A stretch of DNA of 64,000 nt from a virus, in the IMG/VR virus record IMGVR_UViG_3300005347_000205, positions 8,510 to 72,509 of that record; one strand, written 5' to 3'. The position numbers and the translations under genes were made by a program. Under the pieces are notes generated by a model. It did not search any database. It worked only from the letters and a program-made list of their open reading frames with translations, and was not told the origin of the DNA. Below, piece after piece: positions 5,235 through 64,000 of the stretch. Numbering within the stretch: position 1 is the first letter of the stretch; the number at the start of each line of letters is the position of its first letter.

Positions 5235-7727
5235 ATGAATTCGGTCGTCTCGATCGACGCCATTCGTCCGCTGGTCGAAGCCGGTTTCGCGGTGCATTGG
5301 CTGCATCCGCGCACCAAGCGGCCGATCGGCGATGAGTGGCAGCACGCCCAGGTGGCATCGCTCGCGTGGCTCCGGGCAAAACATCGCCATGACAACAATG
5401 TCGGCGTGCGCCTTGGCCAACATTCGTTGCTGACATCAGGTGGCTATCTTCACGCATTCGACATCGACATCCGGGTAGCTGACCTGGCCGACGAAGCATG
5501 GGAATCCTTCGATCGCCTGCTGCCCGGCGTCCGCGATACGCTTCCGTCGGTTGCGTCTGGGTCCGGTAGCACGTCCGAGCACCTCTATTTCGTTACCGAC
5601 GCTCCATTCTTCGGCAAGAAGCTTGCCGTGTCCGAGGGGAAGCACCGCGGCGCCGACGGTAAGTGGCATTACGACTGGGAGATCGAGCTTTTCGGCACCG
5701 GTAAGCAGATCGTCCTCCCGCCATCGATCCACCCCGACACCGGGCTGCCGTATCGCTGGAAGCGCGAGTTCGACTTCGAGGGGATGGATTTCGGCCTGCA
5801 GCCGCACATCCCTGTCGATCAGATAGAGGCGCTGGGTGTCGCAGAAACCGCGGAATATGAGTTCGAAAAGCGCGAGCCGCTGGAATTCAAACCCGGCCAG
5901 CTGGAAGCCGAACTCGATCTTGTGCCGATCGATCGCCTCGACGACTATCATGACTGGATCACACTCGGCCAGGCGCTGCATCATCAGTTCGGCGGATCGA
6001 CCGGCGGGTACGACCTCTGGATCGCTCATTCTAAACGCTCCGCGAAGTTCGAGGGCACCAATCAGCGCGAACTGCTCCGCAAGTGGCGCGGCTTCGGCCG
6101 CAACCGCCGGAAGCCGGTTACCATGGCGTCGGTCCGACTGTGGGTACAGGAAGCAAGGTCCGCCGCTCTGCTGGCGCAGTTCGACGAGGTCGAGGACGAA
6201 GAAGACGACGCATTTGGTAATTCGGGTGATGCGCTCGCGGATGATTTCGAGACACTTCTTGGCGGAAATGAGCCAGAAAAGACCGATTCTCAACGTGACC
6301 CTTTCGATGACGATGTTGCGGCGGCGCTAGCGACCAGTCCTCTCGACTGGGTTTCACTGCTTGACCTAAACGAAGAAGGCGCGATCAAGCCCACTTTGCA
6401 TAATCTCCGCTTGATCGTGGAGAATGACGTCTGGACGAAAGGTGTTGTGGCGTTCAACCAATTCACCCAGGAAATCGTCCAGCGTGGTCAGCCCGGAACG
6501 AAAAATCCCCGCCGCGCAAATTCCGCGAAGAAGCCGCTCCAACTCGACGGCGAATCATGGGTTCTGCGCGATCGGGTCAACGGAGATTTTTGGACAGAGG
6601 ACAAGGACAACGCGATCCGCGCTCTGATCGAAGCACCAAAGAGCCAAGGTGGATATGGTATCAAGGTTCCAGACCGAGATCTGCGCGCAGCAATAGACAT
6701 CGCCGGCCGGAAGAACGGCTTCCATCCTGTCTGCGAATATCTTGAGGGTCTCACCTGGGACGGGGTGCCGAGGGTGCGCACGCTTTTTCAGACCTACATG
6801 GGAGCGCCCGACGACGCCTATCACCGACAGGTCTCAGAAATCATGTTGGTGGCCGCGGTCGCGCGCGTCCACGAGCCCGGTGCGAAATTCGATACCGCAG
6901 TCATCCTCGAAGGCGTGCAGGGTAAGCGAAAATCGACCTTCATCTCCATTCTCGCGAAAAACTGGTTCGTCGAGCTCGACTGTGACGTGACCGACACACA
7001 GGCCGTTGTCGAGCTCCTGCAGGGCGCCTGGTTGGTCGAGCTGAATGAATTAGGCGGCTTCACCAAGGCCGACGTGCGTCACGTCAAGGCGTTCATCAGC
7101 CGGCGGTCTGACAAGGTGCGCCTCGCCTATGCCAAACGTGCACAGGAATATCACCGGCAGTCGATCCTCGTCGGCAGCACCAACGACGATGTGTATCTGC
7201 GCGACTCGACCGGTGGGCGCCGCTTCCTCCCCGTCCGCTGTTCAATCGAGGGTGAGATCGACACAGATCGCCTGCTTGCCGAGGTTGATCAGTTGTGGGC
7301 CGAGGCTCTGTTGATCTATCGAAAAATGCGCGAGAATCAGCCGCGCGGCACGTTGCCACTGTATCTGTCCGACGCCGAAGCCCGCGACATTGCCGAGAGG
7401 CTGCAGGAATCGCGGCAGGTCGAAAGCAGTGAGGATGCAATCGCTGGCCAGATTGCCGAGTGGCTTGAGCGACCGGTATACACCGGTTCCATCGACGATC
7501 CAATGGACGGCAAAGTCCGTAACGAGACCTGCCTGCTTGAGATCTGGTGCGACTGCCTCGACCGCGATGCCGCCCAGTATACCGGCATGTGGCCAGCGGC
7601 GCTTGGTCGCGCGATGCGGATGGTGCCGGGCTGGAGGGAAAGCGCTCGGAGGCCCCGCTTCGGTAAGTATGGGCAACAGCGCGCATTTGAGCGCGTTGGT
7701 TGGGTGAGAGACCACCTGCGACTGTGA
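5235..7727 (+). CDS. Bifunctional primase-polymerase / PriCT-2 / VirE (SF3-like) helicase
   Basis: Prim-Pol NVGVRLG, DIDI, HLYF, QIVLPPSIHPDTG; PriCT YHDWITLGQAL; Walker A GVQGKRKST; YLRDSTGGRRF; ATG 5235 after GGGAG. Confidence 0.92.
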   Translation: MNSVVSIDAIRPLVEAGFAVHWLHPRTKRPIGDEWQHAQVASLAWLRAKHRHDNNVGVRLGQHSLLTSGGYLHAFDIDIRVADLADEAWESFDRLLPGVRDTLPSVASGSGSTSEHLYFVTDAPFFGKKLAVSEGKHRGADGKWHYDWEIELFGTGKQIVLPPSIHPDTGLPYRWKREFDFEGMDFGLQPHIPVDQIEALGVAETAEYEFEKREPLEFKPGQLEAELDLVPIDRLDDYHDWITLGQALHHQFGGSTGGYDLWIAHSKRSAKFEGTNQRELLRKWRGFGRNRRKPVTMASVRLWVQEARSAALLAQFDEVEDEEDDAFGNSGDALADDFETLLGGNEPEKTDSQRDPFDDDVAAALATSPLDWVSLLDLNEEGAIKPTLHNLRLIVENDVWTKGVVAFNQFTQEIVQRGQPGTKNPRRANSAKKPLQLDGESWVLRDRVNGDFWTEDKDNAIRALIEAPKSQGGYGIKVPDRDLRAAIDIAGRKNGFHPVCEYLEGLTWDGVPRVRTLFQTYMGAPDDAYHRQVSEIMLVAAVARVHEPGAKFDTAVILEGVQGKRKSTFISILAKNWFVELDCDVTDTQAVVELLQGAWLVELNELGGFTKADVRHVKAFISRRSDKVRLAYAKRAQEYHRQSILVGSTNDDVYLRDSTGGRRFLPVRCSIEGEIDTDRLLAEVDQLWAEALLIYRKMRENQPRGTLPLYLSDAEARDIAERLQESRQVESSEDAIAGQIAEWLERPVYTGSIDDPMDGKVRNETCLLEIWCDCLDRDAAQYTGMWPAALGRAMRMVPGWRESARRPRFGKYGQQRAFERVGWVRDHLRL

Positions 7728-8269
7728 AACGCATTCGCTACGTCGAAGGGCGACCCTGCAGTTCATGCGGGCGGACGAAACGCCTCGCTTCAAATCGCCG
7801 GTGCGTCTTCTGCCTGTTTTGGGATGCCTGTCGCGTAGTCGAAGGTGAAATCATCCTGTCACGCCGCGAAACCGCGCGCGCCTGGAACACCTATATGGAA
7901 CTCGGTCGGGATTATCGACATCGAGAAACTGCGCGACGGGGAGCTAACATTCGAAGGGGCCGTATGGCTCAAGCCGCAGGCTCATTTACGAGCGCTCAGG
8001 CGGCCGCGATATTGAAGCTCCAGAACGGCAGGTGCGCCTATTGTGATGCCACGGTGAATTTGCATCTAGACCACGCAATTCCACTTGCCCGAGGCGGTTC
8101 TAACTGGCCTTGGAATTTACAATGGCTGTGCGCGCACCACAATATCTCGAAAGGTGCTCGCACTGACGCGGAGTACCGCGATATCATCGGACTGCCTGCG
8201 GACGAGCCGGTCAGCCTGCAAATTTGGCGAGAATTTTTCAGGGTTTCCCTGGTGCCGATTCTGGGCTGA
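7724..8269 (+). CDS. HNH endonuclease
   Basis: CAYC, HLDHAIPLARGGSN..NLQWLCAHHNISKG; GTG overlaps primase stop. Confidence 0.88.
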   Translation: MKRIRYVEGRPCSSCGRTKRLASNRRCVFCLFWDACRVVEGEIILSRRETARAWNTYMELGRDYRHRETARRGANIRRGRMAQAAGSFTSAQAAAILKLQNGRCAYCDATVNLHLDHAIPLARGGSNWPWNLQWLCAHHNISKGARTDAEYRDIIGLPADEPVSLQIWREFFRVSLVPILG

Positions 8270-8352
8270 ATCAGCCGAAAAAAAAACCTCCGAAAAACTT
8301 CGGGAAATTTTACCCGGAATCGGCGAAAACGGGCTGAATCGACCAATTTAGT

Positions 8353-12860: not shown

Positions 12861-12861
12861 T

Positions 12862-21356: not shown

Positions 21357-21694
21357 GAACGAGGCTCCTGCCAGAGATGTTATGGAAAATAGATCCCAAG
21401 GTCGAAGCCGCCCGCAAGCTGCCTGGTTGGGGTCCCTTCCACTATGCCTGTCAGCAGGAGCGCTTCTACTTCGATCACTGCGAAAAGCAGGGGCGCGAGT
21501 ACAAGGTGCTCTGTTACTCAGTCGACGCACATTGGCACATCGTCCCGCTCGTCGAGGGTCGCGGGTCGGCTGTCCTCGACGCCTATCGCGACGCCCATGA
21601 GCGGTGCGGGCGGGCAACCACGGAAACTACGGCCGCGCTCGATACTCTGATCGCCGGGCCGCCGGCCGATGATTTCATGGAGATGCTGGGATGA
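21353..21694 (+). CDS. Hypothetical protein with C-terminal DDFMEMLG tag
   Basis: 113 aa, operon overlaps. Confidence 0.65.
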   Translation: MRTRLLPEMLWKIDPKVEAARKLPGWGPFHYACQQERFYFDHCEKQGREYKVLCYSVDAHWHIVPLVEGRGSAVLDAYRDAHERCGRATTETTAALDTLIAGPPADDFMEMLG

Positions 21695-22272: not shown

Positions 22273-23102
22273 CGGCGATCATGGTCGATCTGGAAACGTG
22301 GGGTAAAATCCCCGGCTCCGATATTCGCAGTATCGGCGCGGTCGTGTTCGACCCGGTCTCCGGGACTCTGAGCGACGAATTCTACGTGGCGGTGGATAAT
22401 CCGGTTCGATCCGACGCGCGGCCTATATTCTCCGATCCCGGCGATCCAAACGCTGATCGGCGATACCTGCTGTTCCGCGACCCGGACACCGTTGCATGGT
22501 GGGCCGACCAGAGTCCCGAGGCGCAAGGGGCGTTCGATAACCCCGTCGATCTAAGGAAAGGTCTGCAGCTTTTCGCGAACTGGTGGACGAAACAGCACGA
22601 CGGTGAGGGTTACTCGCGCTTCTGGGCGAAAGGCCCCCATTTCGACGAAGCGATATTGGCAGCCTGCTATCGGGCTGTCGATTTACCAGCTCCCTGGTCG
22701 TACCGCGCCCCACGGGACTGCCGCACGATCTATGAGGCGGCCGGTGGCGTCGAAATTCCTTTCGAGGGCACCCAACACAACGCTCTCGATGATGCCAAGC
22801 ATCAGGCGCGGTGCGTGATCGAGGCATATCGGAAACTGCGTAAGCATGTAACCATGACGATCGACTGCAACACGGCGCCATATCGGGAATTGATCGCCGA
22901 ACTCGTCGCTGCGCGGAGATACACCGATCAGCGCGTAACAGGACTGCTCGAAGCCAATAACCGCGAAGTCGAGCGACGGCGGACCGCCACTGGCCTGCTC
23001 CGGAAGGCTGGCGATTATATAGCTGACATCACGGGCGCCAGAGATCGCCCAGGTTCAGACAGCGCCGAAATTTGCGACGCCATCGACGAGTTCCTGGGAT
23101 GA
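22269..23102 (+). CDS. DEDDh 3'-5' exonuclease (DUF5051/Rv2179c-like)
   Basis: IMVDLETWG, SIGAV.FD, WAKGPHFD, RDCRT, HNALDDAKHQA. Confidence 0.88.
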   Translation: MTAIMVDLETWGKIPGSDIRSIGAVVFDPVSGTLSDEFYVAVDNPVRSDARPIFSDPGDPNADRRYLLFRDPDTVAWWADQSPEAQGAFDNPVDLRKGLQLFANWWTKQHDGEGYSRFWAKGPHFDEAILAACYRAVDLPAPWSYRAPRDCRTIYEAAGGVEIPFEGTQHNALDDAKHQARCVIEAYRKLRKHVTMTIDCNTAPYRELIAELVAARRYTDQRVTGLLEANNREVERRRTATGLLRKAGDYIADITGARDRPGSDSAEICDAIDEFLG

Positions 23103-25868: not shown

Positions 25869-26150
25869 ATGAGCGGCATTGGTCATAATTCTGGCGAAGA
25901 TCCCCTGGACGACAAGGGCAGCATCGCATCGCAGGAGCTTCGGCTGTTTGTCGAGCGCGTCGAGCGGCTTGAGGAGGAAAAGAAAGGGATCGTCGATGAC
26001 ATCAAAGAGGTGATGTCAGAGATGAAGGGACGTGGCTACGACACGAAGATGGTCCGAAAACTTATCGCCATACGGAAGAAGAAGAAGGGTGAATATGAGG
26101 AAGAGCAGATGGTGCTCGATACCTACTTAGCCGCGCTCGGGATGATCTGA
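25869..26150 (+). CDS. gapR: GapR (DUF2312) nucleoid-associated protein homologue
   Basis: LRLFVERVERLEEEKKGIVDDIKEV..E.KGRGYDTK..RK....LDTYLAALGM. Confidence 0.92.
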   Translation: MSGIGHNSGEDPLDDKGSIASQELRLFVERVERLEEEKKGIVDDIKEVMSEMKGRGYDTKMVRKLIAIRKKKKGEYEEEQMVLDTYLAALGMI

Positions 26151-26151: not shown

Positions 26152-26463
26152 TTGTCTGACGCCGCCCTCTCCCATCTGCTGCGCGACGCCGCACCCGACA
26201 ATCTGCGCATCCATATCTGGACCCGCGCCGGCGGCGGCTACCAGATCAATGTCAGCGAGCGCGGCAGCGGCTCCTGGACGGTAGTTCACGATGATGATCC
26301 GGCTCTGGGTCTTGCGGTCGCGCTGCGACAGCGGGGGAGCGGATCACCGGGCCGCAGGATTGCCCACAGCAGCGAGCCGACGTTCGATGCCCCGGATGTG
26401 CAGATTGACATTGAGGAGGCGATCGCGACCGCGGTGGACCCGTTCGAGGATATGCTTGGATGA
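26152..26463 (+). CDS. Hypothetical protein with C-terminal DPFEDMLG tag
   Basis: 103 aa filling the operon gap. Confidence 0.6.
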   Translation: MSDAALSHLLRDAAPDNLRIHIWTRAGGGYQINVSERGSGSWTVVHDDDPALGLAVALRQRGSGSPGRRIAHSSEPTFDAPDVQIDIEEAIATAVDPFEDMLG

Positions 26464-27074
26464 GCAGCCCGTTCGCCGATTTGCCGGCCAACCACTTCGG
26501 CATGATAGAGGCCGATCCGGCCTGGGCCTGGACGAGTTACGCGGGGAAGGCTTCGGCGCCACACCGCACGGCTGACGCTCCCTACCCCGTGATGTCGCTC
26601 GACGAGATGAAGGCCCTCCCCGTGGCCGACCTCGCAGCTAAAGATTGTCTGCTGAATATGTGGGTGATCGGCAGTCACCTCGACCAGGCGATTGAGCTCG
26701 GCCGGCACTGGGGATTCCTATTCAAGAGCGATGGCTTCATCTGGGTTAAAACTGGCAAGCACGATGCGACCCTGCGACCGATCGGCATGGGCAAGTGGGT
26801 GCGAAAGCAGGTCGAGTATAGCTTGATCTTCAGCCGCGGGAAGCCGAGCCGGACTGATGCCGGGGTTCGCCAGCTTATCGAGACGGGCGAAAATGTGATC
26901 TATGCGCCGAAGCGCGAGCACAGCCGCAAACCCGAAGAGCGCTACGAGAGAATCGAGCGCCTAGTGTCCGGGCCCTACGTCGAATTATTCGCTAGGGAAA
27001 CCAGGCGCGGATGGTCCTGCTGGGGAAACGAGACATCGAAATTCGACGATCCCTTCGAGCGCATGCTGGGATGA
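26460..27074 (+). CDS. MT-A70 family N6-adenine methyltransferase
   Basis: ADPAW (DPPW-like), YPVMSLDEMKALPV, FIWVK, REHSRKP, YVELFAR..GW..WGNE. Confidence 0.92.
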   Translation: MSSPFADLPANHFGMIEADPAWAWTSYAGKASAPHRTADAPYPVMSLDEMKALPVADLAAKDCLLNMWVIGSHLDQAIELGRHWGFLFKSDGFIWVKTGKHDATLRPIGMGKWVRKQVEYSLIFSRGKPSRTDAGVRQLIETGENVIYAPKREHSRKPEERYERIERLVSGPYVELFARETRRGWSCWGNETSKFDDPFERMLG

Positions 27075-48773: not shown

Positions 48774-49076
48774 TCAGTTGAGCGGATCATCGCTGGGGGT
48801 TGGTCCCGGCTCATCGTCATCGTCATCGGGGTCGATGCCCAGCTTGAACAGGCGTGCCTCGGTCTTCGACAGTTCGACCGCCGCGCCGCAGTCGACAAGG
48901 AAGCGACGCTCATCTTCGGTAATCGGCGTGAAAACCGAGTCCGGAGGCGCGGTCTGGTCGTTGCCATAAACGATCATGTGCACTGCCTTGAGCGGCTTGA
49001 CGCCGGCCTGCTGTTCCACCTCAATCCGGGGCTCGTCCTTCTTGAAGACGGGCTCTTCCTTAACCTTGCGAGTCAT
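48774..49076 (-). CDS. Hypothetical head-region protein
   Basis: 100 aa, acidic tail ending SDDPLN. Confidence 0.7.
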   Translation of the reverse strand: MTRKVKEEPVFKKDEPRIEVEQQAGVKPLKAVHMIVYGNDQTAPPDSVFTPITEDERRFLVDCGAAVELSKTEARLFKLGIDPDDDDDEPGPTPSDDPLN

Positions 49077-52142: not shown

Positions 52143-53845
52143 TTGTCACCTCCGTCCGGCGTGGTCGCATCGGCGATAGCCTTGAGCGCGCTGGGATCTG
52201 TCGCCGAGAAGGTCAGGCCGAGTTCCTCGCGCTTCTTTTTCTCGCGGGCGAGCTGACGATAGACTTTGCGCCAGTCCTTACCGAGACGTGCGAGTTCATC
52301 TTCGGCGGTAGACAGGCCACTTTCGATGCGCAGGACGGCCGCCTGGGTTTCTTTGAGTTCGTCGATCTGGCCGCGCGAGGCGCCGATCCACTCGCAGCGC
52401 GACAGCGCATCGAACGCGAGGCTGAGGCGACCGCCGAAATAGATAAGACCGGCAGCCTTGCGCGCGGGGAGCGATGTGATCTCGTTCTTGTTGATCGCCT
52501 CTTCGAGCCACAGCCTGAAACAGATCGTGGCGAAGCGATCGGCGATCAGCTTCTTGCGCGCCTGCATGAACTTCCAGGTCTCGGTCATCGCGGCGCGCGC
52601 GGAGCTGTAATTGGTGTGGGTATAGTCCCTGCTGAGCTGCTCGTAGCTGACGCCCATCGTCGCCGCGATGTAGCGAAGTAGGGATTGCTCGAATTCGGTG
52701 CCTAGCGGACCGGTGTTCGCGGCAGACTGTAATTCCAGCTTCTCGCCGGGGAACAGGCGCGGTATACGCACGCCATCAATCGCGATACCCTTGTTGCCGA
52801 CATATTTTCCGACCGAGCTCAGATACCCCTCGGCATAATTGGTGATCGCCGCAGCGGCAGCCTCTGCCGAATCACCGGCGCCCATGCGGGTCATGATGTC
52901 GGCCATGGGGAGGTCTGAGGTGATCGCGGCAGCATAAATCGCCTGCGAAACAGCGTGCTGGACGGTGATGTCGCGCCACGTATGCGTGATCTTCATCGCC
53001 TTGAGCGCGGCGGCCATCTGGGTGATGCCGCGCGACTGGTCGGGACGGGTCTGCTCGAACAGGTGAATGACCTGGAGCCGCCCCCATGGCTTGCGCTTGG
53101 GGATCGGCTTCCAGGTCGGAAGGTCGAAACTCAACGGGCCGATATCGTTCGGATGTGCCGATCGGATGAAATAAGTTTGCGGGGCACCGCGGAAATTATA
53201 CTGAATACCGGCACGCTGGTTCGGAAGCTGTTGAAACGGCAGGATGCGATCCTCGGGATCGGACAGTCGGTCGAGATCAACCATCTGGACCGAGGTGCTG
53301 AATGGTGCTCCGTCGTCCTTTATCCACTCGACCGCGGCGAGCACCTCTCCCGCCATGAGATCGATGCCGACGGCCATGCGGACCAGCGAGGTTAGATTGT
53401 TGGTGCGCGACGCGTCGATCCAGTTGTCGGCAGAGTCAGCGTATAGTTCCCACTTCTCCTCGACCTCCTCCTGGAACTCCTCCTCCCAGGCATCATCCTG
53501 CTTGCCACGCACGATACGGCTAGAAGGCCGGCAATTGAGCAGGAAGTGTGAGCCGACGATGTTGTCCTTGTGCAGGTTTGACCCGCCCTGGACGAACGCA
53601 TCATTGCGGAGCATCCCGCGCGAGCGCGCATCGATGATCGGCTTTTCGGGCAGAATGTCGGCGTCGACCGACTGGAGCGGCTCGGACCAGAGAGCGATGC
53701 TGCTGTTCAGCTTGTCCGCCCCCTCGAAGGGACCCATGGCGCGTTCGCCCCCGGCACCGGCGGGGACCGTCACCGTCGCCGGGGGCTCTGCAGGCGTGGA
53801 CAGGGGATGACCCACGCCCAGCATTTCCTCGAATGTCGCGCTCAC
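52139..53845 (-). CDS. Portal protein (lambda family)
   Basis: RSRGMLRND, VIHLFEQTRPDQSRGI, GVSYEQLSRDY..NYSSARA, IDELKE. Confidence 0.95.
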   Translation of the reverse strand: MSATFEEMLGVGHPLSTPAEPPATVTVPAGAGGERAMGPFEGADKLNSSIALWSEPLQSVDADILPEKPIIDARSRGMLRNDAFVQGGSNLHKDNIVGSHFLLNCRPSSRIVRGKQDDAWEEEFQEEVEEKWELYADSADNWIDASRTNNLTSLVRMAVGIDLMAGEVLAAVEWIKDDGAPFSTSVQMVDLDRLSDPEDRILPFQQLPNQRAGIQYNFRGAPQTYFIRSAHPNDIGPLSFDLPTWKPIPKRKPWGRLQVIHLFEQTRPDQSRGITQMAAALKAMKITHTWRDITVQHAVSQAIYAAAITSDLPMADIMTRMGAGDSAEAAAAAITNYAEGYLSSVGKYVGNKGIAIDGVRIPRLFPGEKLELQSAANTGPLGTEFEQSLLRYIAATMGVSYEQLSRDYTHTNYSSARAAMTETWKFMQARKKLIADRFATICFRLWLEEAINKNEITSLPARKAAGLIYFGGRLSLAFDALSRCEWIGASRGQIDELKETQAAVLRIESGLSTAEDELARLGKDWRKVYRQLAREKKKREELGLTFSATDPSALKAIADATTPDGGDK

Positions 53846-54193: not shown

Positions 54194-55333
54194 TTAGGGG
54201 GCCGCAACAACCTTTACCGGCCTTTCTGCGCCAAGCATCCGCATCCGCAGCCAGTCCCGTGCCCTCTTTTCGATCAGATCGAACGAAGCATATCCGAACA
54301 GGCACATGGCGATCAGATAGGCGATGAAGAAACCGTTCGTCAGCACGATATCAACCGACCAAAGCCCCGCCGCAGCGCCGGCCAGGAACAGCATCTGCAA
54401 TGGGCTATGCCATAGATAAGTTGAATAAGTCAGATCGCCCACGGCGCGGAAACGCTTATAGGCCAGTCCAATCCGCTCAGACAGCGCGAGCGCGAGCAAC
54501 ACCGGCGCGAACAATCCGAGCAGGGTGAAGGTCAGCGGCAGCTTGGCGAGCATCCCCATGGCGAACGCCCCCGCCCAGGCCACAAGGCTGATCAGGCTCG
54601 CAATCAGCGCCCATCGGTAGCGTGGCGCCGGGATCATCGAGAACGCCGCGTAGAGGGTTGCCCCAGCGAAGAAGTAGGCGCCGCAAAGGATAACGCTGAT
54701 TCGGAAGACCATAAACAGCGCGAGGAACGCCAGCGCCAGCAATCCCGAGCTAAGCAGGCTCGAAAAACCGGCCCGGATGTAGAGCCAGAACAGGACATAG
54801 ATCAGGATTTCCGCCGACACCGACCAGATCGGCCCGTTGAAGCTGTTTCCTTCCGACAGGCCCCATTCCGACGCCATGAAAAGGTTCAGGACGAAGTGCC
54901 AGGCATCGTTGATCTGATAGATCAGATAGTGCCCGAACGCGCCCATGCTGGCCCATTGGATCGCCGCGACGAGCAGCAGCGTCAGGAAGTGTAGCGGATA
55001 GAGACGGGCGAAGCGGATGGCGAAAAACTCCCATCCGGTGACGGACTTTCCGGCATAGACGTGCATGAACACAAAACCGCTGATCATCCAGAACATCATG
55101 ACCGCAAGCGCGCCGTGCGTGCGGATGTAGCCGAGCGACCAGTAGAGAGACACCTCGCTCAACCGCTCCGGTGGCAGGCTGATAGTGCCGTTGCCCATCG
55201 TGAAATGGCCGTAGTGGAAGACGAGGATCGCGATGGCTGACAGGCCGCGCAGCATGTCGATCGAGTGGAAGATTCCGCCCGTGCCGACGATTGGGTGTGT
55301 CAGCGCCGTGCTGATATTGGACAATATCCCCAT
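54194..55333 (-). CDS. Acyltransferase-3 family (O-antigen/polysaccharide acetylase, OafA-like)
   Basis: IDMLRGLSA.A.LVFH, FWMISGFV, RFARLYPLH, WSVSAE, GDLTYSTYLWH; about 10 TMs; start uncertain. Confidence 0.9.
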   Translation of the reverse strand: MGILSNISTALTHPIVGTGGIFHSIDMLRGLSAIAILVFHYGHFTMGNGTISLPPERLSEVSLYWSLGYIRTHGALAVMMFWMISGFVFMHVYAGKSVTGWEFFAIRFARLYPLHFLTLLLVAAIQWASMGAFGHYLIYQINDAWHFVLNLFMASEWGLSEGNSFNGPIWSVSAEILIYVLFWLYIRAGFSSLLSSGLLALAFLALFMVFRISVILCGAYFFAGATLYAAFSMIPAPRYRWALIASLISLVAWAGAFAMGMLAKLPLTFTLLGLFAPVLLALALSERIGLAYKRFRAVGDLTYSTYLWHSPLQMLFLAGAAAGLWSVDIVLTNGFFIAYLIAMCLFGYASFDLIEKRARDWLRMRMLGAERPVKVVAAP

Positions 55334-55388
55334 GAGTCGCGCATAACCGGAGCTTCCCGTTTTCGCCAGATGGGTATATCGTCTCGGC

Positions 55389-55559
55389 ATGGAGCAGAAT
55401 ATCCTAATCCTGGCTGGCGCCTTCATCCTGATTTTTACGGCAAGGAGCTGGATCGCCGTCAGCAAGATACCGCATGGGACATGCAACCGCTGCAAATGGG
55501 CAGAGGCGAACGCAACCGGCTATATCTGTGATGAGTGCGCTGACGCCGAAGCGTGGTGA
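55389..55559 (+). CDS. Small TM + CxxC..CxxC protein
   Basis: MEQNILILAGAFILIF..CNRC..CDEC. Confidence 0.45.
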   Translation: MEQNILILAGAFILIFTARSWIAVSKIPHGTCNRCKWAEANATGYICDECADAEAW

Positions 55560-55577
55560 TCGGTCCGGGAGGGTAAC

Positions 55578-55703
55578 ATGGTTGCACAGATAAAGGATTG
55601 GCTTCGGAGCCTGTGGACCGTCTTAATCAGCGCTCCGCCGCCGGAATGTTCATGCCGTAACTATGTGTGTAGCTGCGACCTTGTAGACCAGCTTGGGCCT
55701 TAG
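55578..55703 (+). CDS. Small Cys-rich peptide
   Basis: GGAGGG RBS; MVAQIKDWLRSLW..CSCRNYVCSC. Confidence 0.4.
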   Translation: MVAQIKDWLRSLWTVLISAPPPECSCRNYVCSCDLVDQLGP

Positions 55704-55727
55704 TCACCCTTCCAGGGGAGGTTGTGA

Positions 55728-58649: not shown

Positions 58650-58903
58650 CAGGCCGCAGCCGCCGTAAACGTGCGACCTGGGGTACAGCCTCTGAATTCG
58701 GTTCCGTCGAAATATTCGACTTTGCCGTTTTGCCAAGTGATGTTGTACGCGCCGCCTTGGGGGTTAAGCCGCATGAGCACGGCGCCATCTGGCACTGTAA
58801 TCGACGATGTACTCTGCACGTCGAAAGGCTCGCCCGCCGGTACCTGAGCGTATGTTCCGCTGATACTTTGGATCGCTTTGAAAAAGGAAACAGCAAGGGC
58901 CAT
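58649..58903 (-). CDS. Small hypothetical protein
   Basis: GGAG RBS; TGATG coupling to the FN3 gene. Confidence 0.65.
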   Translation of the reverse strand: MALAVSFFKAIQSISGTYAQVPAGEPFDVQSTSSITVPDGAVLMRLNPQGGAYNITWQNGKVEYFDGTEFRGCTPGRTFTAAAA

Positions 58904-58980: not shown

Positions 58981-61182
58981 TCAACCTAGAACTCCGCCGA
59001 GATCTGCCAAGGTGATCGACGGCTTTGCGGCGACGGACAGACCCTCGCCGGGTATGAAGACATGATCATTATGATCCCAATCGGCATACCATGGCTGAGG
59101 CGTCGTCCAGGTCAATCGATCGATCTTGATGCTCGAATGGGAAAGGAAAGCGACGCAGTAGCACAGCAGATCGAACGCCTCATTCTTGCGGCGTCCCGCG
59201 TTCTTCCATCCCGCGGCGATGCGGTTCTCGGCAGTGAGCTGCGTATAGAGCCAGTTTATGTCTTCGGGCCGGCCGTCCTCGTGATGCCAGATGGGAAAAT
59301 GGATCTGACCTCCTGGCTCCGATCGGCCGAGCAGATTCGAAACCTGATCCTTGGCGGGATTCGAGTTGATGAGCCACACCGGCACATCGCCGCGGGCGAT
59401 CGCGAATTTGTCCTTTTGTTGCGAATCCGGATAGCTGACGTGCAGCATGGGCGCCGTCTGGCTGGGCGCACCTTTCAGGAGGTGGAAGCGCTGATGGTAA
59501 TTCCTGCCTTCGGGGTCGCTCAATCGCAGATAGCGCCAGAACTCATAGGCGTTGGATGTTACCGATACGCGGGGTCCTTCGAGCGCCGGGTTCAAGCGCA
59601 CCGCGGTCGCACTGGCGCTGGCACCACCCGAGTCACAGGCTACGAGCTTAGCACGCATTACCCGGCCTGAACCGTCGCCGAGCGGGTATTCGCGCTCGAT
59701 CACCTCGTCGATCAATATGTGCCAGTCTTCGGGGTTTGCGGCAGGATCTATGAGCTTACGCTCGCCATCCTGGTCGAGGCGGCGCGACTTGGTGATCTTC
59801 CACATGTCGACGTGATAGACATCGAACGACCATGCTCCACCCTCCATCTGCACGGGCGCGATACCGAAGGTGTGGATGACGAAGGCCGGTCTGCCGCCAG
59901 CCTGCACGTCGATGGTGGTGATCAGGAACCGTACGCCGGGCGGCACTTCGCCGCGGACGTTGTACGGCCGAGCGCGCGCCTTGAGCTCTTCGGGCAGGCG
60001 CCCTGCTTCCAGCGACTTGGGTGTGTAAGGGAGGCCGAGCGAGGTATTGGTGACGGCCTTCAGCTTTTCTTCGCTCCCGGTCCGCTCATAGTCTGCCTTG
60101 GCATTCAGATAGGCAAGCACCTGGCGCTGCCACGTATTGAATGCCGCAGCGGGTCCCTTGATCCAGAATGATGCCGTCTCCGAGCGGCGCGGTGTTCCCG
60201 TGATCGAGCCGTCCGGATGCCAAATCTCACCTTCCTTGATCCACCGGCCACGCAGGTTGAGTTCGTGCTGCATGTCTGGTGTGTGCGGGTAGCCGCACGA
60301 TGGACATGACAAGGTGACGGCGTCCGCCACCTCCTGCGGATCATGGGAGTCCTTAAGATCGAACAGATGGAAGTCTGGTTCGAATTTGTGCGAGCACTGC
60401 AGGCATGGCCAGTACCAGCGCCGGCGGTCGCCAGTGTTGTAGATCGACAGCACACCCTCGCACGGGGGCGCCTCGTGCGGAGAACTCGGAATCCATTTAG
60501 CGTCGGTTACTTCGAAACCTGGCGAGGATTCGGCGACGTTCATCGCATAGCGCCCGAGGGTCTCGCCGCGCTTGCCGACGAGCGTCCAGGCATCACCCTC
60601 GCCATCGATGCTGGTTGGTAAGCGGTCATAGTCCATCGTCCAGGTTCGACCGACCGTTTTGCCCGATAATTCGTTGATTGATGGATGGACGATGGTGACC
60701 CGCATCCCGCTGATAAAGGTCTTGTCGAAGACATTGTCGTTGACCCGACCTGGCACGAGTTTGGCCGCAACATCGGTAGAGTTACGGAAGTGCTTGCGCA
60801 GATCCGCCAGTGAGAATTCGCGGGCTCGCGCCTGCGACATCTGAACCAGCATCATGTCAGCGGGGTCGCATAACGCCGAGTGTGACATCCAGTTGAGCCA
60901 GAGCTGCGATTTGCCGATCCGAGCTGGACCGACCAGTACCATGCCCAGATAATCTAGGCTGGTGAGCACGTCCTGTGGCTCGACGGCGTAGGGTGCCTTG
61001 TCGCTCGACCAAGGGCCACTATAGTTCTTCTCCTTGATCCTGACATATTTGCGGGCGGCCTCTGTGACCGTCAGACGCTCGGGCGGACTAATCGCCTCGG
61101 TAGCGGCAGCAACAAGCTCTTCGAGAGTGGCGTATGACGGCGCCCGGTCGCGGACCAGGAGGCGCTTGGCTGGCGCGCTCAA
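58981..61182 (-). CDS. Terminase large subunit (GpA family)
   Basis: GPARIGKS, ESSP, GDRRRWYWPC..C, TIDVQ, DSGG, NEAFDLLCY. Confidence 0.95.
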   Translation of the reverse strand: MSAPAKRLLVRDRAPSYATLEELVAAATEAISPPERLTVTEAARKYVRIKEKNYSGPWSSDKAPYAVEPQDVLTSLDYLGMVLVGPARIGKSQLWLNWMSHSALCDPADMMLVQMSQARAREFSLADLRKHFRNSTDVAAKLVPGRVNDNVFDKTFISGMRVTIVHPSINELSGKTVGRTWTMDYDRLPTSIDGEGDAWTLVGKRGETLGRYAMNVAESSPGFEVTDAKWIPSSPHEAPPCEGVLSIYNTGDRRRWYWPCLQCSHKFEPDFHLFDLKDSHDPQEVADAVTLSCPSCGYPHTPDMQHELNLRGRWIKEGEIWHPDGSITGTPRRSETASFWIKGPAAAFNTWQRQVLAYLNAKADYERTGSEEKLKAVTNTSLGLPYTPKSLEAGRLPEELKARARPYNVRGEVPPGVRFLITTIDVQAGGRPAFVIHTFGIAPVQMEGGAWSFDVYHVDMWKITKSRRLDQDGERKLIDPAANPEDWHILIDEVIEREYPLGDGSGRVMRAKLVACDSGGASASATAVRLNPALEGPRVSVTSNAYEFWRYLRLSDPEGRNYHQRFHLLKGAPSQTAPMLHVSYPDSQQKDKFAIARGDVPVWLINSNPAKDQVSNLLGRSEPGGQIHFPIWHHEDGRPEDINWLYTQLTAENRIAAGWKNAGRRKNEAFDLLCYCVAFLSHSSIKIDRLTWTTPQPWYADWDHNDHVFIPGEGLSVAAKPSITLADLGGVLG

Positions 61183-61406: not shown

Positions 61407-62185
61407 TCATCGTCCTCGTCATCGAGCCAACCCGTTTCCGGGACATCGGGCTGCCCGTCGATCGAACCGGACACTCCGAACAGCGGCTTCGCGAACATCG
61501 ATCCGGTTGCGCGCCTGGCCGGAAGATCGACGAGTTGCGCACGCATCTCGGTACGGATTTCGTCTATGGTTTCGGTGACTATCCGGGTTTGATGCTCGTC
61601 CAGTTTCGCGCGGTTGCGCAGTTCCTCGACGACCATGACCAAGCTGTCCTTGATCATCATGGCAACGTCGCCGAGGACTTTCAGCACGTCCTCGGTCTCC
61701 CATGCCTCCTGGGCCTCGATCTTATACTTCACGCGGCTGCGCTGGCTGTCCCAGAAGGATTTATTGATCTCGGGAGGTAGGTCGGCCTTGTTCAGCGTCT
61801 TCGCGAACTGGTCAGCTGTCATCTTCGGCTTGATCAGGTATGGTAGCGCGTCGTGGAAATAGTAGACGTGGCGTCCCGAGCCAACTGTTCCGACGGGCTT
61901 GAGCGCACGCAGTCTGGCCTTCACCGTCATTGGGTCCATGCGCAGAACACGCGCGAGGAAATTCACGCTGACCGGTAGAAAGAACTCGTCTTCGTTGACC
62001 TTGGTGTGCCCCGAACCTGCAAGCCGGATTTCATTCTGGTGATTTAGATCATCGGCACGCTCTGTGGCGCGGCGCGCTCGCTCCTCCCGACTGGGGCGGC
62101 CTAGCTTCTTGCCCGACGCCGTATACCCCCGCGGCGGGCTGCTGTCGGCGGTACTTCCAAGCATCGCCTCAAAGTCATCTGTCAT
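61403..62185 (-). CDS. Terminase small subunit (DUF1441-like)
   Basis: HTH LARVLRMD..TVK.RL; LPPEINKSFWDSQRSR..E...W.T.DV as in Chi-like terS. Confidence 0.8.
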   Translation of the reverse strand: MTDDFEAMLGSTADSSPPRGYTASGKKLGRPSREERARRATERADDLNHQNEIRLAGSGHTKVNEDEFFLPVSVNFLARVLRMDPMTVKARLRALKPVGTVGSGRHVYYFHDALPYLIKPKMTADQFAKTLNKADLPPEINKSFWDSQRSRVKYKIEAQEAWETEDVLKVLGDVAMMIKDSLVMVVEELRNRAKLDEHQTRIVTETIDEIRTEMRAQLVDLPARRATGSMFAKPLFGVSGSIDGQPDVPETGWLDDEDDE

Positions 62186-62336: not shown

Positions 62337-62372
62337 AAACCCAGGATCGTGGATATGCGATCCTGGGTTTTT
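62337..62372 (+). terminator. Rho-independent terminator (possibly bidirectional)
   Basis: AAACCCAGGATCG-tggatatg-CGATCCTGGGTTTTT. Confidence 0.8.
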
Positions 62373-62507
62373 GTTGACCGAGTTTGGCGTTGACCAATGC
62401 CGGTAACGACCTAAATACGACAGAACGGGCGCCCTATTCCCGTACCTCATGGTCCCCCGGTGTCAGGAGATTTCTCCGTGAATAGGTAGCATCGGGGGGC
62501 CACCAGG

Positions 62508-62732
62508 TCAGCCGAGTGCGCCCATGAAATCGTCGGCTATCGCGTTGAATTCTCGGCAACGCCGTTGCCACTCCTGTATTTTGTCGGATGGCCAATAGGT
62601 TCCGCTGCCGTCCGGGTACCGCTCCGGAGCCGGAAACTCCCCATCGGAGATCTTCCGGTAGATATGAGACTTGCTCCAGCCGGTAACGGCCTCGACCTTC
62701 TTGAGCCGCCAGAATTCTATATAATCCGACAC
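62508..62732 (-). CDS. AlpA-family excisionase/regulator
   Basis: RLKKVEAVTGWSKSHIYRKISDGEFPAP...W....EW; GTG 62732. Confidence 0.88.
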   Translation of the reverse strand: MSDYIEFWRLKKVEAVTGWSKSHIYRKISDGEFPAPERYPDGSGTYWPSDKIQEWQRRCREFNAIADDFMGALG

Positions 62733-62767
62733 TGCTGATCCCCACAGGCACCGATAGGGAACAACTA

Positions 62768-62782
62768 TCACCAAAAAGTTGA
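62768..62782. promoter_or_regulatory. Palindromic operator between int and alpA
   Basis: TCACC-AAAAA-GTTGA. Confidence 0.65.
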
Positions 62783-62785
62783 AAG

Positions 62786-64000
62786 TCAACCTAGCATGTC
62801 GAGGAAGGGATCGTCTGGCCATACGAGGTCGGCCCACCACTGCATCATTCGACGGCGCTCCGGGAGATATTCGGCAGCGTTGTATGAGCCGCGAACTTCG
62901 TTCTCCTCGACATGGGCAAGCTGGCGCTCGATGGCGTCCGGATGCCATAGTCGGCGTCCATCGTCGTAAGCCTCATTGGCAGCTGTGCTGAACGTCGAGC
63001 GGAAACCATGCACGGTGGCACGCGAGCGATAACCGAGCCGGTACAGTGCGAAGAGCATCGTGTTCTCGGACAGCACGCCGGCGACCGCCTCGCCGGGAAG
63101 GATGAGATCACCCTTGGCACGGTCGATCAATCTGATCACGAGATTCTGTGCCTGCCTGGAAAGCGGCACGAGGTGTTCGGCGGGCCGGTTCTTGATCTTC
63201 ATCCGAGCAGGGGGAATCCGCCAAAGTGCATCGGGGCCACCCAAACCCTCGAATTCTCGTTTTGTGGCGAACCTGATCTCCATGCTGCGCAGCACCGTCA
63301 GCACCGTCAGCTCCAGGGCATCCTTGGTCGACGCATCCAAGCTCTGATCAGCGGTCAACCTTCGGCGGAACTCCCCCATCTCGCTCAATTTGAGAAACGC
63401 CCGCCGCTTCTTTCGCTTGGGTGGTTTCAACGCGTCTCGAATATCAGCCGTTGGATCACGCTCAACCCAGCCCTCTGGGATCGCAAAACGGAAAATCTCA
63501 CCGCAATAGTTCTTGATACGTTTCGCGAGTTCGATCGCGCCGCGATCCTCGATCTTCCTGATCGTATCAAGAACCATCTTCGGGGTAATCGTATCGATCG
63601 CGAGCCTGCCCAACTCTGGATAGACATCACCCTCTATCCGGTTGCTGATGCGAACCGCGTGCGCTGGTGACCACCCATTGCTACGGGCAGCGAACCATAA
63701 TTTACCGACCTCTTCGAACGACGGTGACGTGGTTTCGCTGATCGGCTTGTCGCGCGCCCCAGGATCTCCGCCAAGGGTGAGTTGCTCCTTGGCCGCGTCA
63801 CGGCGCTTCCGTGCAACACTCAGTGTCACATCCGGGTAGGCGCCGAAGCTCAGGGTCTTGCGCTTTTTCCGAAAGCTGTAGTCGAACCGCCAGAGAATAG
63901 ACCCGCTGGGCTTAACCAGGACGTAGAGACCTTCCGAATCAGCCCGCTTGTAGGGCTTGCTCATCGGCTTCAGTTTTTTGAGCGCCACTTCAGTGAGCAT
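62786..64000 (-). CDS. int: P4-type tyrosine integrase
   Basis: Arm-binding D..GLY..V..SGS..W; R..E, HGFRST, IERQLAH, YNAAEYL.ERR.MMQWWAD. Confidence 0.96.
   Translation of the reverse strand: MLTEVALKKLKPMSKPYKRADSEGLYVLVKPSGSILWRFDYSFRKKRKTLSFGAYPDVTLSVARKRRDAAKEQLTLGGDPGARDKPISETTSPSFEEVGKLWFAARSNGWSPAHAVRISNRIEGDVYPELGRLAIDTITPKMVLDTIRKIEDRGAIELAKRIKNYCGEIFRFAIPEGWVERDPTADIRDALKPPKRKKRRAFLKLSEMGEFRRRLTADQSLDASTKDALELTVLTVLRSMEIRFATKREFEGLGGPDALWRIPPARMKIKNRPAEHLVPLSRQAQNLVIRLIDRAKGDLILPGEAVAGVLSENTMLFALYRLGYRSRATVHGFRSTFSTAANEAYDDGRRLWHPDAIERQLAHVEENEVRGSYNAAEYLPERRRMMQWWADLVWPDDPFLDMLG

What the first reader, a model, noticed from the sequence alone, without database searches (positions are those of the whole stretch)
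6240..62815. A shared acidic 'D-[D/P]-F-x-x-M-L-G' peptide tag on about 8 unrelated phage proteins
Seen in sequence: integrase C-terminus DDPFLDMLG* (62786-62815), AlpA excisionase DDFMGALG* (62508-62534), MT-A70 methylase DDPFERMLG* (27045-27074), ORF 26152 VDPFEDMLG*, ORF 21353 DDFMEMLG*, TerS N-terminus MTDDFEAMLG (62156-62185), portal N-terminus MSATFEEMLG (53816-53845), and the primase-helicase acidic linker DDFETLLG (6240-6263). A weaker copy is the exonuclease end DAIDEFLG*. Synonymous codons differ (ctg/ctt/cta/ctc; gga/ggt/ggc), so the constraint appears to be on the peptide rather than a DNA repeat. The tag lies outside the folded domains, and I do not recall it as a standard part of P4 integrases, AlpA, MT-A70 or lambda portals. 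Inference: a phage-wide short linear motif (acidic lead plus amphipathic FxxML helix) that docks DNA-handling proteins for integration, excision, replication, methylation and packaging onto one hub, or acts as a shared degron, anti-degron or modification tag. I know of no described system like this.
Basis: partly seen in the sequence, partly recalled or inferred. Interest (0 to 1): 0.9.

Follow-up and report, generated by a model that had tools for sequence, protein, structure and literature searches.

The report
Shared docking peptide on phage proteins
About ten unrelated proteins of this temperate phage carry the same short acidic, helix-forming peptide at an end or in a linker, and related phages carry their own versions at the same places, so it is probably an address tag read by one shared partner that has not been identified.

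Summary
All eight copies and the weak ninth are in frame at the stated coordinates. F-x-x-[ML]-L-G occurs 9 times in 82 predicted proteins against 0.68 in shuffles. Seven copies sit at a protein end against 0.03 expected, and 0 of 1000 shuffles reach either count.

The window is 64 kb of a 72.5-kb virus record related to Casjensviridae. Nine relatives carry lineage-specific versions at the same places: TerS N-terminus, portal N-terminus, primase linker, and the C-termini of integrase, AlpA and methylases of four Pfam-defined families. Many copies are doubled. The tag is absent from host genes in two lysogenic Sphingomonas genomes.

It is a real short linear motif. It is related to the acidic tail of the phage's gp2.5-type SSB and is closest in logic to the T4 clamp-binding tails and the T7 gp2.5/gp4 tails. 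The reader of the tag is unidentified; the one complex prediction gave no answer. Candidates are the large terminase, the replisome/SSB groove, GapR, or a host factor.

I rate it a new variant of a known kind and found no description in print. The scan had already noted this peptide on this genome (e1-6172288, e1-6197715). On other genomes it noted only different shared tags.

The parts
62789..62815 (-). Tag at the integrase C-terminus (DDPFLDMLG, then stop)
   Evidence: Translation. Pfam integrase domains end at residue 376 of 404. In the AlphaFold2 model the tag is a separate short helix, 398-403, after the last core helix, 376-393; mean pLDDT of the last block is 60.
62511..62534 (-). Tag at the C-terminus of the AlpA-like HTH protein (DDFMGALG, then stop)
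   Evidence: The likely start is the GTG at codon 72 of the long ORF, giving a 74-aa protein.
62156..62185 (-). Tag at the N-terminus of the small terminase subunit (MTDDFEAMLG)
   Evidence: DUF1441 / phrog_141 TerS match starts at residue 65-73. The same place is tagged in relatives.
53816..53845 (-). Tag at the N-terminus of the lambda-family portal (V/M-SATFEEMLG)
   Evidence: Phage_portal_2 starts at residue 50. The same place is tagged in relatives.
27045..27071 (+). Tag at the MT-A70 methylase C-terminus (DDPFERMLG)
   Evidence: Methylases of three other Pfam families (C-5, N6_N4 and MT-A70 in relatives) are tagged too.
26434..26460 (+). Tag at the C-terminus of orf26152 (VDPFEDMLG)
   Evidence: Orthologues in G001 and G003 end in their own tag versions.
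21668..21691 (+). Tag at the C-terminus of orf21353 (DDFMEMLG)
   Evidence: In the four-sequence alignment A2 the D-D-F of the tag is invariant inside a variable tail, and three orthologues carry two copies.
6240..6263 (+). Tag in the acidic linker of the primase-helicase (DDFETLLG)
   Evidence: The linker is tagged in RHph_X2_30, DSS3-P1 (three copies), G002, G003 and RcSalem.
23079..23099 (+). Weaker copy at the C-terminus of the Rv2179c-like 3'-5' exonuclease (AIDEFLG)
   Evidence: The RcSalem homologue ends ...DSELLI*.
225..245 (-). Acidic tail tip of the gp2.5-type SSB (DDDDPLG): the short form of the tag
   Evidence: PF10991 and phrog_112. Tail pLDDT is 67, 64, 47 in the model. Of 125 family representatives, 12 end in LG.
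4186..4206 (-). The same short tail (EEDDPLG) on a 179-aa protein upstream of the primase gene
   Evidence: Orthologues end GDDFD*, DDDFG* and DDEFG*.
48777..48794 (-). Short tail (SDDPLN) on the 100-aa protein encoded just after the major capsid gene
   Evidence: The tail changes together with the SSB tail in relatives.
25869..26150 (+). GapR-like DNA-binding protein, directly upstream of two tagged genes; its own C-terminus resembles the tag. Candidate reader or fellow carrier.
   Evidence: PF10073, E 7.6e-29. 53-57% identity to three relatives. C-termini.
58981..61182 (-). Large terminase subunit (lambda gpA type), not tagged. Candidate reader of the tag.
   Evidence: Pfam GpA_ATPase + GpA_nuclease. 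Orthologous in all relatives. Its candidacy rests on inference only.

Best explanation
The peptide is a genuine short linear motif: an acidic lead followed by a one-turn amphipathic helix (aromatic-x-x-hydrophobic-Leu, often capped by Gly). It hangs on flexible ends or linkers of otherwise unrelated DNA-handling proteins.

It is an extended form of the acidic, hydrophobic-tipped tail that the phage's own gp2.5-type SSB carries. I propose it works as a docking tag. One phage-encoded reader, or a few, that co-evolves with the tag binds it.

Shown here:
- The motif is real.
- Its position is independent of the host fold.
- It is conserved and co-varies across relatives.
- It is related to the SSB tail.
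- It is absent from host genes.

Inferred: that it binds a common partner.

My rough odds, given that there is a common reader:
- Large terminase subunit, about 25%. Small terminase and portal, its two obligatory partners, are the most widely conserved carriers.
- Replisome parts, as in T7 (polymerase, helicase, or the SSB DNA groove), about 25%.
- GapR, about 15%.
- A host protein, about 25%.
- Something else, about 10%.
For: 1. Enrichment. 9 observed against 0.68 expected, and 7 terminal against 0.033 expected; 0 of 1000 shuffles reach these.

2. Independence from fold. The tag occurs at N-termini, at C-termini and in a linker. It lies outside the Pfam envelopes. In the integrase model it is a separate short helix.

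3. Orthologous positions with a lineage-specific spelling.
- This phage: F-x-x-M-L-G.
- G001: D-D-F-D/E-x-L/F-L, without Gly.
- G002 and G003: F-x-x-L-L-G.
- Rhizobium phage RHph_X2_30: F-x-D-I/V-L-G.
- Ruegeria phage DSS3-P1: S-I-D/E-D-L-L-G.
- Rhodobacter phage RcSalem: T-D-L-S/T-D-L-L/F.

4. Repeated independent acquisition.
- Methylases of four Pfam-defined families carry it, often twice in tandem: MT-A70, C-5, N6_N4, plus annotated methylases in three GenBank phages (with 14, 27, 96).
- 7 of the 120 best-listed integrase homologues carry it; the others have other tails.

5. Link to the SSB tail.
- In DSS3-P1 the SSB, the exonuclease and the primase all end in ...DDLLG*, the same peptide as the TerS N-terminal tag.
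- In G001 the SSB ends ...GDDFD* and the tags read DDFDxLL.
- In phage Chi, eight proteins including SSB, primase, exonuclease and TerS end in D/E-D/E-E/D-V*.
- 12 of 125 full-length representatives of the SSB family end in LG, and 82 of 125 end in a hydrophobic residue.

6. Precedent for tail binding. In the crystal of the Enc34 SSB, from a phage of this group, the acidic tail lies in the DNA-binding sheet of a neighbouring molecule. The T7 gp2.5 tail is implicated in binding polymerase and primase-helicase (PMC5686142, passages).

7. Phage-specific. A back-translated pattern gave 18 hits in two lysogenic Sphingomonas genomes, of which I read 15. Only 4 are at a protein end, and 3 of those lie in the prophages. 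The other 11 are internal.
Against: - No binding was shown. The one complex prediction (SSB core with a tagged tail) returned 'no answer', so it counts neither way.
- The tagged set is heterogeneous. A portal and an integrase have no known common partner.
- The DNA polymerase is not orthologous between DSS3-P1 (weak family A match) and this phage (family-B-like). The tag persists all the same, which speaks against the polymerase as the universal reader.
- Loktanella phage pCB2051-A has GapR and acidic tails but almost no long-form tags. Achromobacter phage AchV4 has no GapR yet tags its TerS. GapR therefore cannot be the universal reader.
- My gene calls come from a crude script, not a validated gene finder.
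- Only 37 of the 82 predicted proteins were run against Pfam or PHROGs.
Confidence: 0.55

Rival explanations
1. GapR latch mimicry. The tag imitates the C-terminal segment of GapR, the alphaproteobacterial nucleoid protein that closes as a tetrameric clamp around DNA. The tag docks on host or phage GapR when that interface opens, so GapR serves as a DNA-bound toolbelt.
For: - The phage encodes a GapR homologue directly upstream of two tagged genes. The order GapR, orf26152-like, methylase recurs in G001-G003.
- GapR ends ...D-T-Y-L-A-A-L-G-M-I. This has the same spacing as the tag: acid, aromatic-x-x-small/hydrophobic-L-G.
- In Caulobacter GapR the C-terminal helix and tail (69-89) form the tetramer interface. 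Y82 sits in its core and G87 at a critical position, and the interface opens dynamically (PMC7498317, passages).
- All tag-rich phages seen here infect Alphaproteobacteria and encode GapR.
Against: - AchV4, a phage of a betaproteobacterium, has no GapR hit but still carries the TerS tag.
- The Loktanella phage has GapR but no long-form tags.
- In RHph_X2_30 and RcSalem, GapR itself carries the phage's acidic tail or tail tip.
- The spacing of a helix capped by Gly is generic.
Confidence: 0.1
2. Shared degron or stability signal. The peptide marks potentially harmful DNA enzymes, and unassembled packaging proteins, for a host AAA+ protease or an adaptor.
For: - The tags sit at extreme ends, where such signals usually lie (established knowledge, recalled).
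- Related integrases carry alternative C-terminal extensions: 50 of the 120 best-listed end in Ala-Ala and 21 end in hydrophobic-hydrophobic-Gly. The integrase tail is therefore an exchangeable module.
- The tagged set is rich in nucleases, methylases and recombinases.
Against: - There are internal copies in the primase linker, up to three in DSS3-P1.
- Tandem doubling is common.
- The tag is present on the portal and on the abundant SSB.
- The spelling changes between phages of closely related hosts (G001 versus G002), although host proteases are conserved.
- Host genes lack the motif at their ends.
Confidence: 0.12
3. No common reader. Each tail folds back on its own protein's DNA-binding surface as a DNA mimic, as SSB tails do. 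Tails look alike within a genome because they spread by short recombination between genes.
For: - Nearly all carriers bind DNA.
- The Enc34 SSB tail governs discrimination between ssDNA and dsDNA and lies in a DNA-binding sheet (PMC5686142, passages).
- The integrase and MT-A70 tags share 12 identical bases at their start, which is compatible with recent copying.
Against: - Different folds would not all select the same aromatic-x-x-Leu-Leu tip.
- The tip changes in concert across ten or more genes per lineage.
- Synonymous codons differ among copies.
- The tag sits at either end or in linkers, and often in tandem.
Confidence: 0.12
4. Capsid-targeting signal. The tag binds portal, scaffold or protease inside the procapsid, so that integrase, methylase and primase are packaged and injected with the DNA.
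For: - The portal N-terminus carries the tag in most relatives.
- In lambda the corresponding portal segment, which contains a similar I-P-x-L-L-G, is annotated as a 22-residue cleaved leader.
- Packaged methylases and other injected proteins are known from other phages (recalled).
Against: - The small terminase and the SSB carry the tag but are not head-internal proteins.
- In AchV4, whose record labels many virion structural proteins, none of the tagged replication proteins is so labelled.
- No protease-site pattern accompanies the tag.
Confidence: 0.06

Closest known systems
Sliding-clamp-binding C-terminal peptides of phage T4 (gp43 polymerase, gp55 late sigma, gp33 co-activator)
   Same: A short hydrophobic-and-acidic peptide sits on a flexible linker at the extreme end of functionally unrelated proteins. 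The copies are interchangeable and are read by one hub (PMC2988020, passages). T4 gp43 ends ...SLDFLFG* and gp55 ends ...SLDFLYEAND*. The spacing hydrophobic-x-x-hydrophobic-hydrophobic-(Gly) is that of the present tag, for example DSS3-P1 SIEDLLG*.
   Different: - No clamp gene was found among the 37 of 82 proteins searched.
- The polymerase here is not tagged.
- The carriers here are integrase, excisionase, methylases, small terminase, portal and primase.
- Copies also lie at N-termini and in linkers.
Acidic C-terminal tails of phage T7 gp2.5 (SSB) and gp4 (primase-helicase)
   Same: The phage has a gp2.5-type SSB with a disordered acidic tail. In T7, SSB and primase-helicase share an acidic tail ending in an aromatic residue (...DGDF*...DTDF*), and these tails bind basic patches of the polymerase (PMC12593628, passages). 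In G001 the SSB ends ...GDDFD*.
   Different: - Here the tail has spread to 10-13 proteins, far beyond the replisome.
- It has grown an amphipathic helix.
- It does not need a free C-terminus.
- The polymerase type differs between tagged lineages.
C-terminal tip of bacterial SSB as an interaction hub (recalled, no call)
   Same: An acidic run ends in a hydrophobic tip that organises many DNA-repair and replication enzymes.
   Different: The polarity is reversed. In bacteria one SSB tail is read by pockets on many clients. Here many clients carry an SSB-like tail.
C-terminal closing segment of GapR
   Same: The pattern acid, aromatic-x-x-small-L/I-G is the same. That segment forms the interface that opens and closes the DNA clamp (PMC7498317, passages). 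A GapR gene sits next to tagged genes.
   Different: The GapR segment is part of a folded oligomer, not a free tag. The distribution of GapR does not match that of the tags perfectly.
Cargo and targeting peptides of T4 internal proteins and of encapsulins (recalled, no call)
   Same: Short shared terminal peptides on unrelated proteins are read by one assembly.
   Different: Those target the capsid interior. Here small terminase and SSB carry the tag, and no virion data support packaging.

Membership tests
Sliding-clamp-binding motif (T4 gp45 type / PIP-like) | Short hydrophobic-acidic peptide at a protein end on a flexible linker, shared by unrelated proteins | tested here: met
   T4 sequences checked.
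Sliding-clamp-binding motif (T4 gp45 type / PIP-like) | A sliding clamp encoded by the phage | tested here: not met
   No clamp family appeared among the 37 of 82 predicted proteins run against Pfam or PHROGs. No unannotated 200-380 aa protein is shared by all tagged relatives. The remaining 45 proteins were not searched.
Sliding-clamp-binding motif (T4 gp45 type / PIP-like) | The replicative polymerase carries the motif | tested here: not met
   The polymerase and the 40 homologues printed end in a conserved hydrophobic ...W/Y-F-A-x-A-V*, not in the tag.
Sliding-clamp-binding motif (T4 gp45 type / PIP-like) | Binding to the host beta clamp pocket | not tested
The spacing of the tag differs from the bacterial clamp-binding consensus as I recall it.
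T7-type acidic tails (gp2.5/gp4 to polymerase) | gp2.5-type SSB with a disordered acidic C-terminal tail | tested here: met
   PF10991 (E 6.7e-22) and phrog_112. Tail pLDDT is 67, 64, 47.
T7-type acidic tails (gp2.5/gp4 to polymerase) | Primase-helicase ends in the same tail | tested here: not met
   In this phage the primase-helicase ends ...VRDHLRL* and carries the tag in its linker. The feature is met in Chi, DSS3-P1, RHph_X2_30 and AchV4.
T7-type acidic tails (gp2.5/gp4 to polymerase) | Tail binds the phage polymerase | not tested
   A polymerase alignment (A1) was prepared but not used. The polymerase is not orthologous across tagged lineages.
C-terminal degrons of AAA+ proteases | Signal acts only at a free end and shortens half-life | not testable with these tools
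   Internal and tandem copies fit poorly. No stability data exist.
Capsid targeting / cargo-loading peptides | Carriers are found inside the particle | not testable with these tools
   In the AchV4 record the 'virion structural protein' labels do not fall on tagged replication proteins. I did not read the paper behind those labels.
GapR C-terminal interface segment | Same residue pattern as the segment that closes the GapR tetramer | tested here: inconclusive
   The pattern matches. However, it is the generic pattern of a helix capped by Gly, and the distribution of GapR does not follow that of the tags.

The most novel reading that the evidence does not exclude
These temperate phages of Alphaproteobacteria run a phage-wide address code. 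One co-evolving reader uses a 6-8 residue tag to collect integrase, excisionase, every methylase the phage acquires, nucleases, primase-helicase, small terminase and portal. Replication, DNA modification, recombination and packaging would then be physically coupled. Any newly acquired gene could join simply by gaining the tag.
Probability: 0.2. Interest if true: 0.9.

Novelty: new variant of a known kind. Interest (0 to 1): 0.72.

Why it matters
If one reader binds all these tags, this is a simple and evolvable way for a phage to organise its DNA transactions. Methylases of four Pfam-defined families have picked up the tag independently, often in two copies, which suggests that newly acquired enzymes must be plugged into the system to work well.

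It would also give a rule for annotation: the tag marks true protein ends and members of the network. Because the tag is short, it could be tested as a portable handle for recruiting proteins in these hosts. The question is directly testable in three cultivated phage-host pairs (Sinorhizobium, Ruegeria, Rhodobacter).

The wider pattern also seems not to have been described: many proteins of Chi-like phages end in the phage's own SSB tail. My three searches and the passages of the Enc34 SSB paper returned by my term search did not mention it.

Tried and rejected
- Complex prediction. I submitted the SSB core (residues 1-205, alignment A4) with the tagged tail of orf21353 (residues 76-113, alignment A2). 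The verdict was 'no answer': score 0.00 in both runs, and the controls were not run. This is neither support nor evidence against.
- Polymerase and TerL alignments (A1; A3).
- DNA-level repeat or start/stop-overlap artefact. Rejected.
- Host-proteome motif. Rejected. Three of the 18 pattern hits were not read. One of them lies in locus L043, where the scan had already shown it to be a C-terminal tag.
- GapR as the universal reader. Weakened by AchV4 and the Loktanella phage.
- Polymerase as the universal reader. Weakened by its non-orthology across tagged lineages.
- Protein Atlas look-up of orf21353. No informative neighbour; best score 0.83.
- Generic regular-expression census across ten genomes. 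It did not discriminate well and I do not use it.
- Earlier-findings look-up for relatives. It found nothing.
- Literature. Searches found no description of a shared tag in these phages. I read listings only, apart from the papers cited elsewhere. Supplements were not opened.
- A resemblance to eukaryotic viral acidic activation domains, to the FtsZ C-terminal peptide and to the ParB N-terminal peptide occurred to me from memory. I did not pursue these.

Full report
WHAT THE WINDOW IS. The window is bases 8510-72509 of a single 72,509-bp virus record. It has a lambda-type head module:
- gpA-type large terminase, gpW, lambda-family portal and an S49 protease.
- A DUF1441 small terminase, a P4-type integrase and an AlpA-like protein.

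Its replication module is of the Chi/Nazgul type:
- A Prim-Pol/VapE primase-helicase, a DUF2800 nuclease and a gp2.5-type SSB.
- A polymerase known only to PHROGs, a helicase, and a GIY-YIG and an HNH endonuclease.

The nearest GenBank phages are Casjensviridae, with large-terminase identity of 42-48%. No near-identical phage is deposited. Homologues of its polymerase and terminase sit in Sphingomonas, Sphingobium and Novosphingobium genomes. The host is therefore probably a sphingomonad. This is an inference.

- A scan of the six frames for F-x(2,3)-[MLIFA]-L-G gave 16 hits in the window, and 8 of them are the claimed ones.
- A tenth copy lies just outside the window, on a GIY-YIG endonuclease.
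- In 82 proteins predicted by my own crude ORF caller, F..[ML]LG occurs 9 times against a shuffled mean of 0.68. Seven copies lie at a protein end against 0.033 expected, and 0 of 1000 shuffles reach these values.
- Codons for the conserved Leu and Gly vary.
- Only 4 of the 14 genes that end in Leu-Gly overlap the next start codon. The pattern is therefore not a by-product of translational coupling.
- The tags lie outside the Pfam envelopes.
- In an AlphaFold2 model of the integrase (65-sequence alignment, mean pLDDT 91.8) the tag is a separate short helix, residues 398-403. It follows the last core helix (376-393) and has low confidence: the last block averages 60.

RELATIVES KEEP THE TAG BUT SPELL IT DIFFERENTLY. 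This is the main new result.
- Rhizobium phage RHph_X2_30 has F-x-D-[IV]-L-G. It occurs at six C-termini, twice at the methylase C-terminus, at the portal N-terminus and near its C-terminus, in the primase linker, and (as F-D-D-I-F-G) at the TerS N-terminus.
- Ruegeria phage DSS3-P1 has S-I-[DE]-D-L-L-G. It occurs at the TerS N-terminus, three times in the primase linker and once at the primase C-terminus, and twice at the methylase C-terminus.
- Rhodobacter phage RcSalem has T-D-L-[ST]-D-L-[LF]. It occurs at the TerS and portal N-termini, the integrase C-terminus, one methylase and a small protein. It also has many tails ending in ...E-L-L-V*.
- Twelve closer relatives came from a viral contig collection, with terminase identity of 44-77%. 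Three of their records were fetched whole.
  - G001 has D-D-F-[DE]-x-[LF]-L without the Gly. It is on the integrase, a C-5 methylase (two copies), TerS, portal, a DUF4326 protein and several small proteins.
  - G002 has [DE]-[DE]-F-x-x-L-L-G. It is on the integrase, AlpA, TerS, portal, an MT-A70 methylase (two copies), a C-5 methylase, the primase linker and small proteins.
  - G003 is similar and includes an N6_N4 methylase with two copies.
- In the orf21353 family the D-D-F of the tag is invariant inside an otherwise variable tail.
- Among the 120 best-listed integrase homologues, 7 carry an acidic F-x-x-L-L tail. Fifty end in Ala-Ala and 21 end in hydrophobic-hydrophobic-Gly. The integrase tail is therefore an exchangeable module.
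- Achromobacter phage AchV4 has the tag on TerS and a weaker form on the portal and the primase end.
- The Loktanella phage has at most a weak portal copy.

THE TAG GRADES INTO THE SSB TAIL.
- The gp2.5-type SSB of this phage ends ...DDDDPLG*. A 179-aa protein upstream of the primase ends ...EEDDPLG*. The small protein encoded after the capsid gene ends ...SDDPLN*.
- In each relative these three positions, and often the nuclease, helicase or primase ends, carry that phage's own tip:
  - ...DDLLG* in DSS3-P1.
  - ...DDDDI* in RHph_X2_30.
  - ...DDDI[AI]* in the Loktanella phage.
  - ...DDPLA* and ...DDMLA* in AchV4.
  - ...GDDFD* in G001.
- In Salmonella phage Chi, eight proteins end in [DE]-[DE]-[DE]-V*: primase, gp4, nuclease, SSB, TerS, a PAPS-reductase-like protein, a RecE-like nuclease and gp62. 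The helicase ends ...WDDEE*.
- The tip Leu-Gly-stop is common in this SSB family. Of 125 full-length representatives, 12 end in LG, 82 end in a hydrophobic residue, and 89 have at least three acidic residues in the last eight.
- The SSB tail is disordered in the model.

THE TAG BELONGS TO THE PHAGE, NOT THE HOST. In two Sphingomonas genomes that carry related prophages, a back-translated pattern for D-[DE]-F-x-x-hydrophobic-hydrophobic-G gave 12 and 6 hits. I read 15 of the 18. Four are at a protein end, and three of these lie within the prophage regions next to the prophage GapR genes. The other 11 are internal, many in frames that look non-coding.

WHAT IT MOST LIKELY DOES. A short peptide that is independent of fold, sits at either end or in linkers, is often doubled, is acquired repeatedly by incoming genes and changes its spelling in concert across a genome is what one expects of a docking tag read by a co-evolving partner.

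Two phage precedents exist.
- T4. [quoted passage not shown] I checked that gp43 ends ...SLDFLFG* and gp55 ends ...SLDFLYEAND*. The spacing is the same as in the present tag.
- T7. SSB and primase-helicase end in matching acidic tails (...DGDF*...DTDF*) that bind basic patches of the polymerase (PMC12593628, passages). In the crystal of the SSB of Enc34, a phage of this group, the tail lies in the DNA-binding sheet of a neighbour (PMC5686142, passages).

WHO READS THE TAG IS OPEN.
- For the large terminase:
  - Small terminase and portal, its two obligatory partners, are the most widely conserved carriers.
  - The protein at the lambda FI position carries the co-varying short tail.
  - In G001 both extra genes flanking the terminase gene are tagged.
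  - The terminase is orthologous everywhere.
- For the replisome: the T7 precedent and the identity of the tag with the SSB tail. The polymerase, however, is of a different family in DSS3-P1.
- For GapR:
  - Its gene sits beside tagged genes.
  - Its C-terminus has the same pattern.
  - In Caulobacter that segment forms the tetramer interface that opens to load DNA (PMC7498317, passages).
  - Against it: AchV4 lacks GapR, the Loktanella phage has it without long tags, and in RHph_X2_30 and RcSalem GapR itself wears the acidic tail or tip.
- A host reader cannot be excluded.
- The one complex prediction allowed gave no answer.

NOVELTY. The principle of shared terminal docking peptides in a phage is known. 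What is new:
- The set of carriers: integrase, excisionase, methylases of four Pfam-defined families, small terminase, portal and nucleases.
- The spread to roughly one protein in eight.
- The use of N-termini and linkers.
- The absence of a clamp gene among the proteins searched.
- The family-wide rule that many proteins end in the phage's own SSB tail.

Three literature searches found no description. I read listings only, and supplements were closed. The scan had noted the same peptide and the Leu-Gly ends on this same genome (e1-6172288, e1-6197715). On other genomes it reported only different shared tags.

Noticed in passing
whole record (window 1-64000 plus 8.5 kb upstream): 22 of 82 predicted proteins end in Gly (residue frequency 9.1%) and 14 end in Leu-Gly. 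These include the untagged large terminase (...LGGVLG*), the tape measure protein (...VKAALG*), a nucleoside deoxyribosyltransferase-like protein and a DUF2786 protein. Only 4 of the 14 overlap the next start.
   Followed up: partly
window 25869-26150 (+): A phage-encoded GapR homologue (PF10073) is the best-conserved small protein among relatives, at 53-57% identity. The gene order GapR, small tagged protein, tagged methylase recurs in G001-G003.
   Followed up: partly
L027:2217-4190 and L027:2530-3036; G002 55728-57521 and 56161-56637: Inside the C-5 methylase gene of two relatives, a 158-168 aa ORF in the +1 frame is better conserved than the methylase frame itself (76% over 112 aa against 55%). 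Both frames end in the tag. This could be an overlapping gene or a frameshift isoform.
   Followed up: partly
L022/L068 (phage lambda, NC_001416): [ILVF]-P-x-L-L-[GSA] has 7 six-frame hits in lambda. By my frame check of the hits inside the gpA gene, three lie in annotated reading frames, and all three are in packaging proteins: the Nu1 C-terminus, gpA near residue 126, and the 22-residue cleaved leader of portal gpB.
   Followed up: partly
L039+L040 (Salmonella phage Chi, NC_025442): Eight proteins, including SSB, primase, two nucleases, TerS and a PAPS-reductase-like protein, end in the same acidic ...D-D-[DE]-E-V* or a close variant.
   Followed up: partly
proteins P0251, P0289, P0314: Some close large-terminase homologues are 1046-1128 aa long and carry PF14528, an intein-type homing-endonuclease domain. 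The Sphingomonas prophage locus L043 has such a long terminase match.
   Followed up: no
L001:5259-7175 (-), upstream of the window: The DNA polymerase has no Pfam family (only phrog_1252). A few homologues touch DNA_pol_B. All 40 homologues printed share a strongly hydrophobic C-terminus...K-x-S/N-A-x-x-W/Y-F-A-x-A-V*.
   Followed up: no
window 2151-4022 (-): An ECF-type sigma factor ORF, a receiver-less OmpR-type winged-helix protein (PF00486) and a DUF6551/ParB-like protein lie together in the early region. First-stage notes on this genome also report a 15-17 bp palindrome in many intergenic gaps.
   Followed up: no
window 54194-58736 (-): Two large genes (433 aa, membrane-rich; 1002 aa) are inserted between the large terminase and gpW genes, a place that is compact in the relatives.
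   Followed up: no
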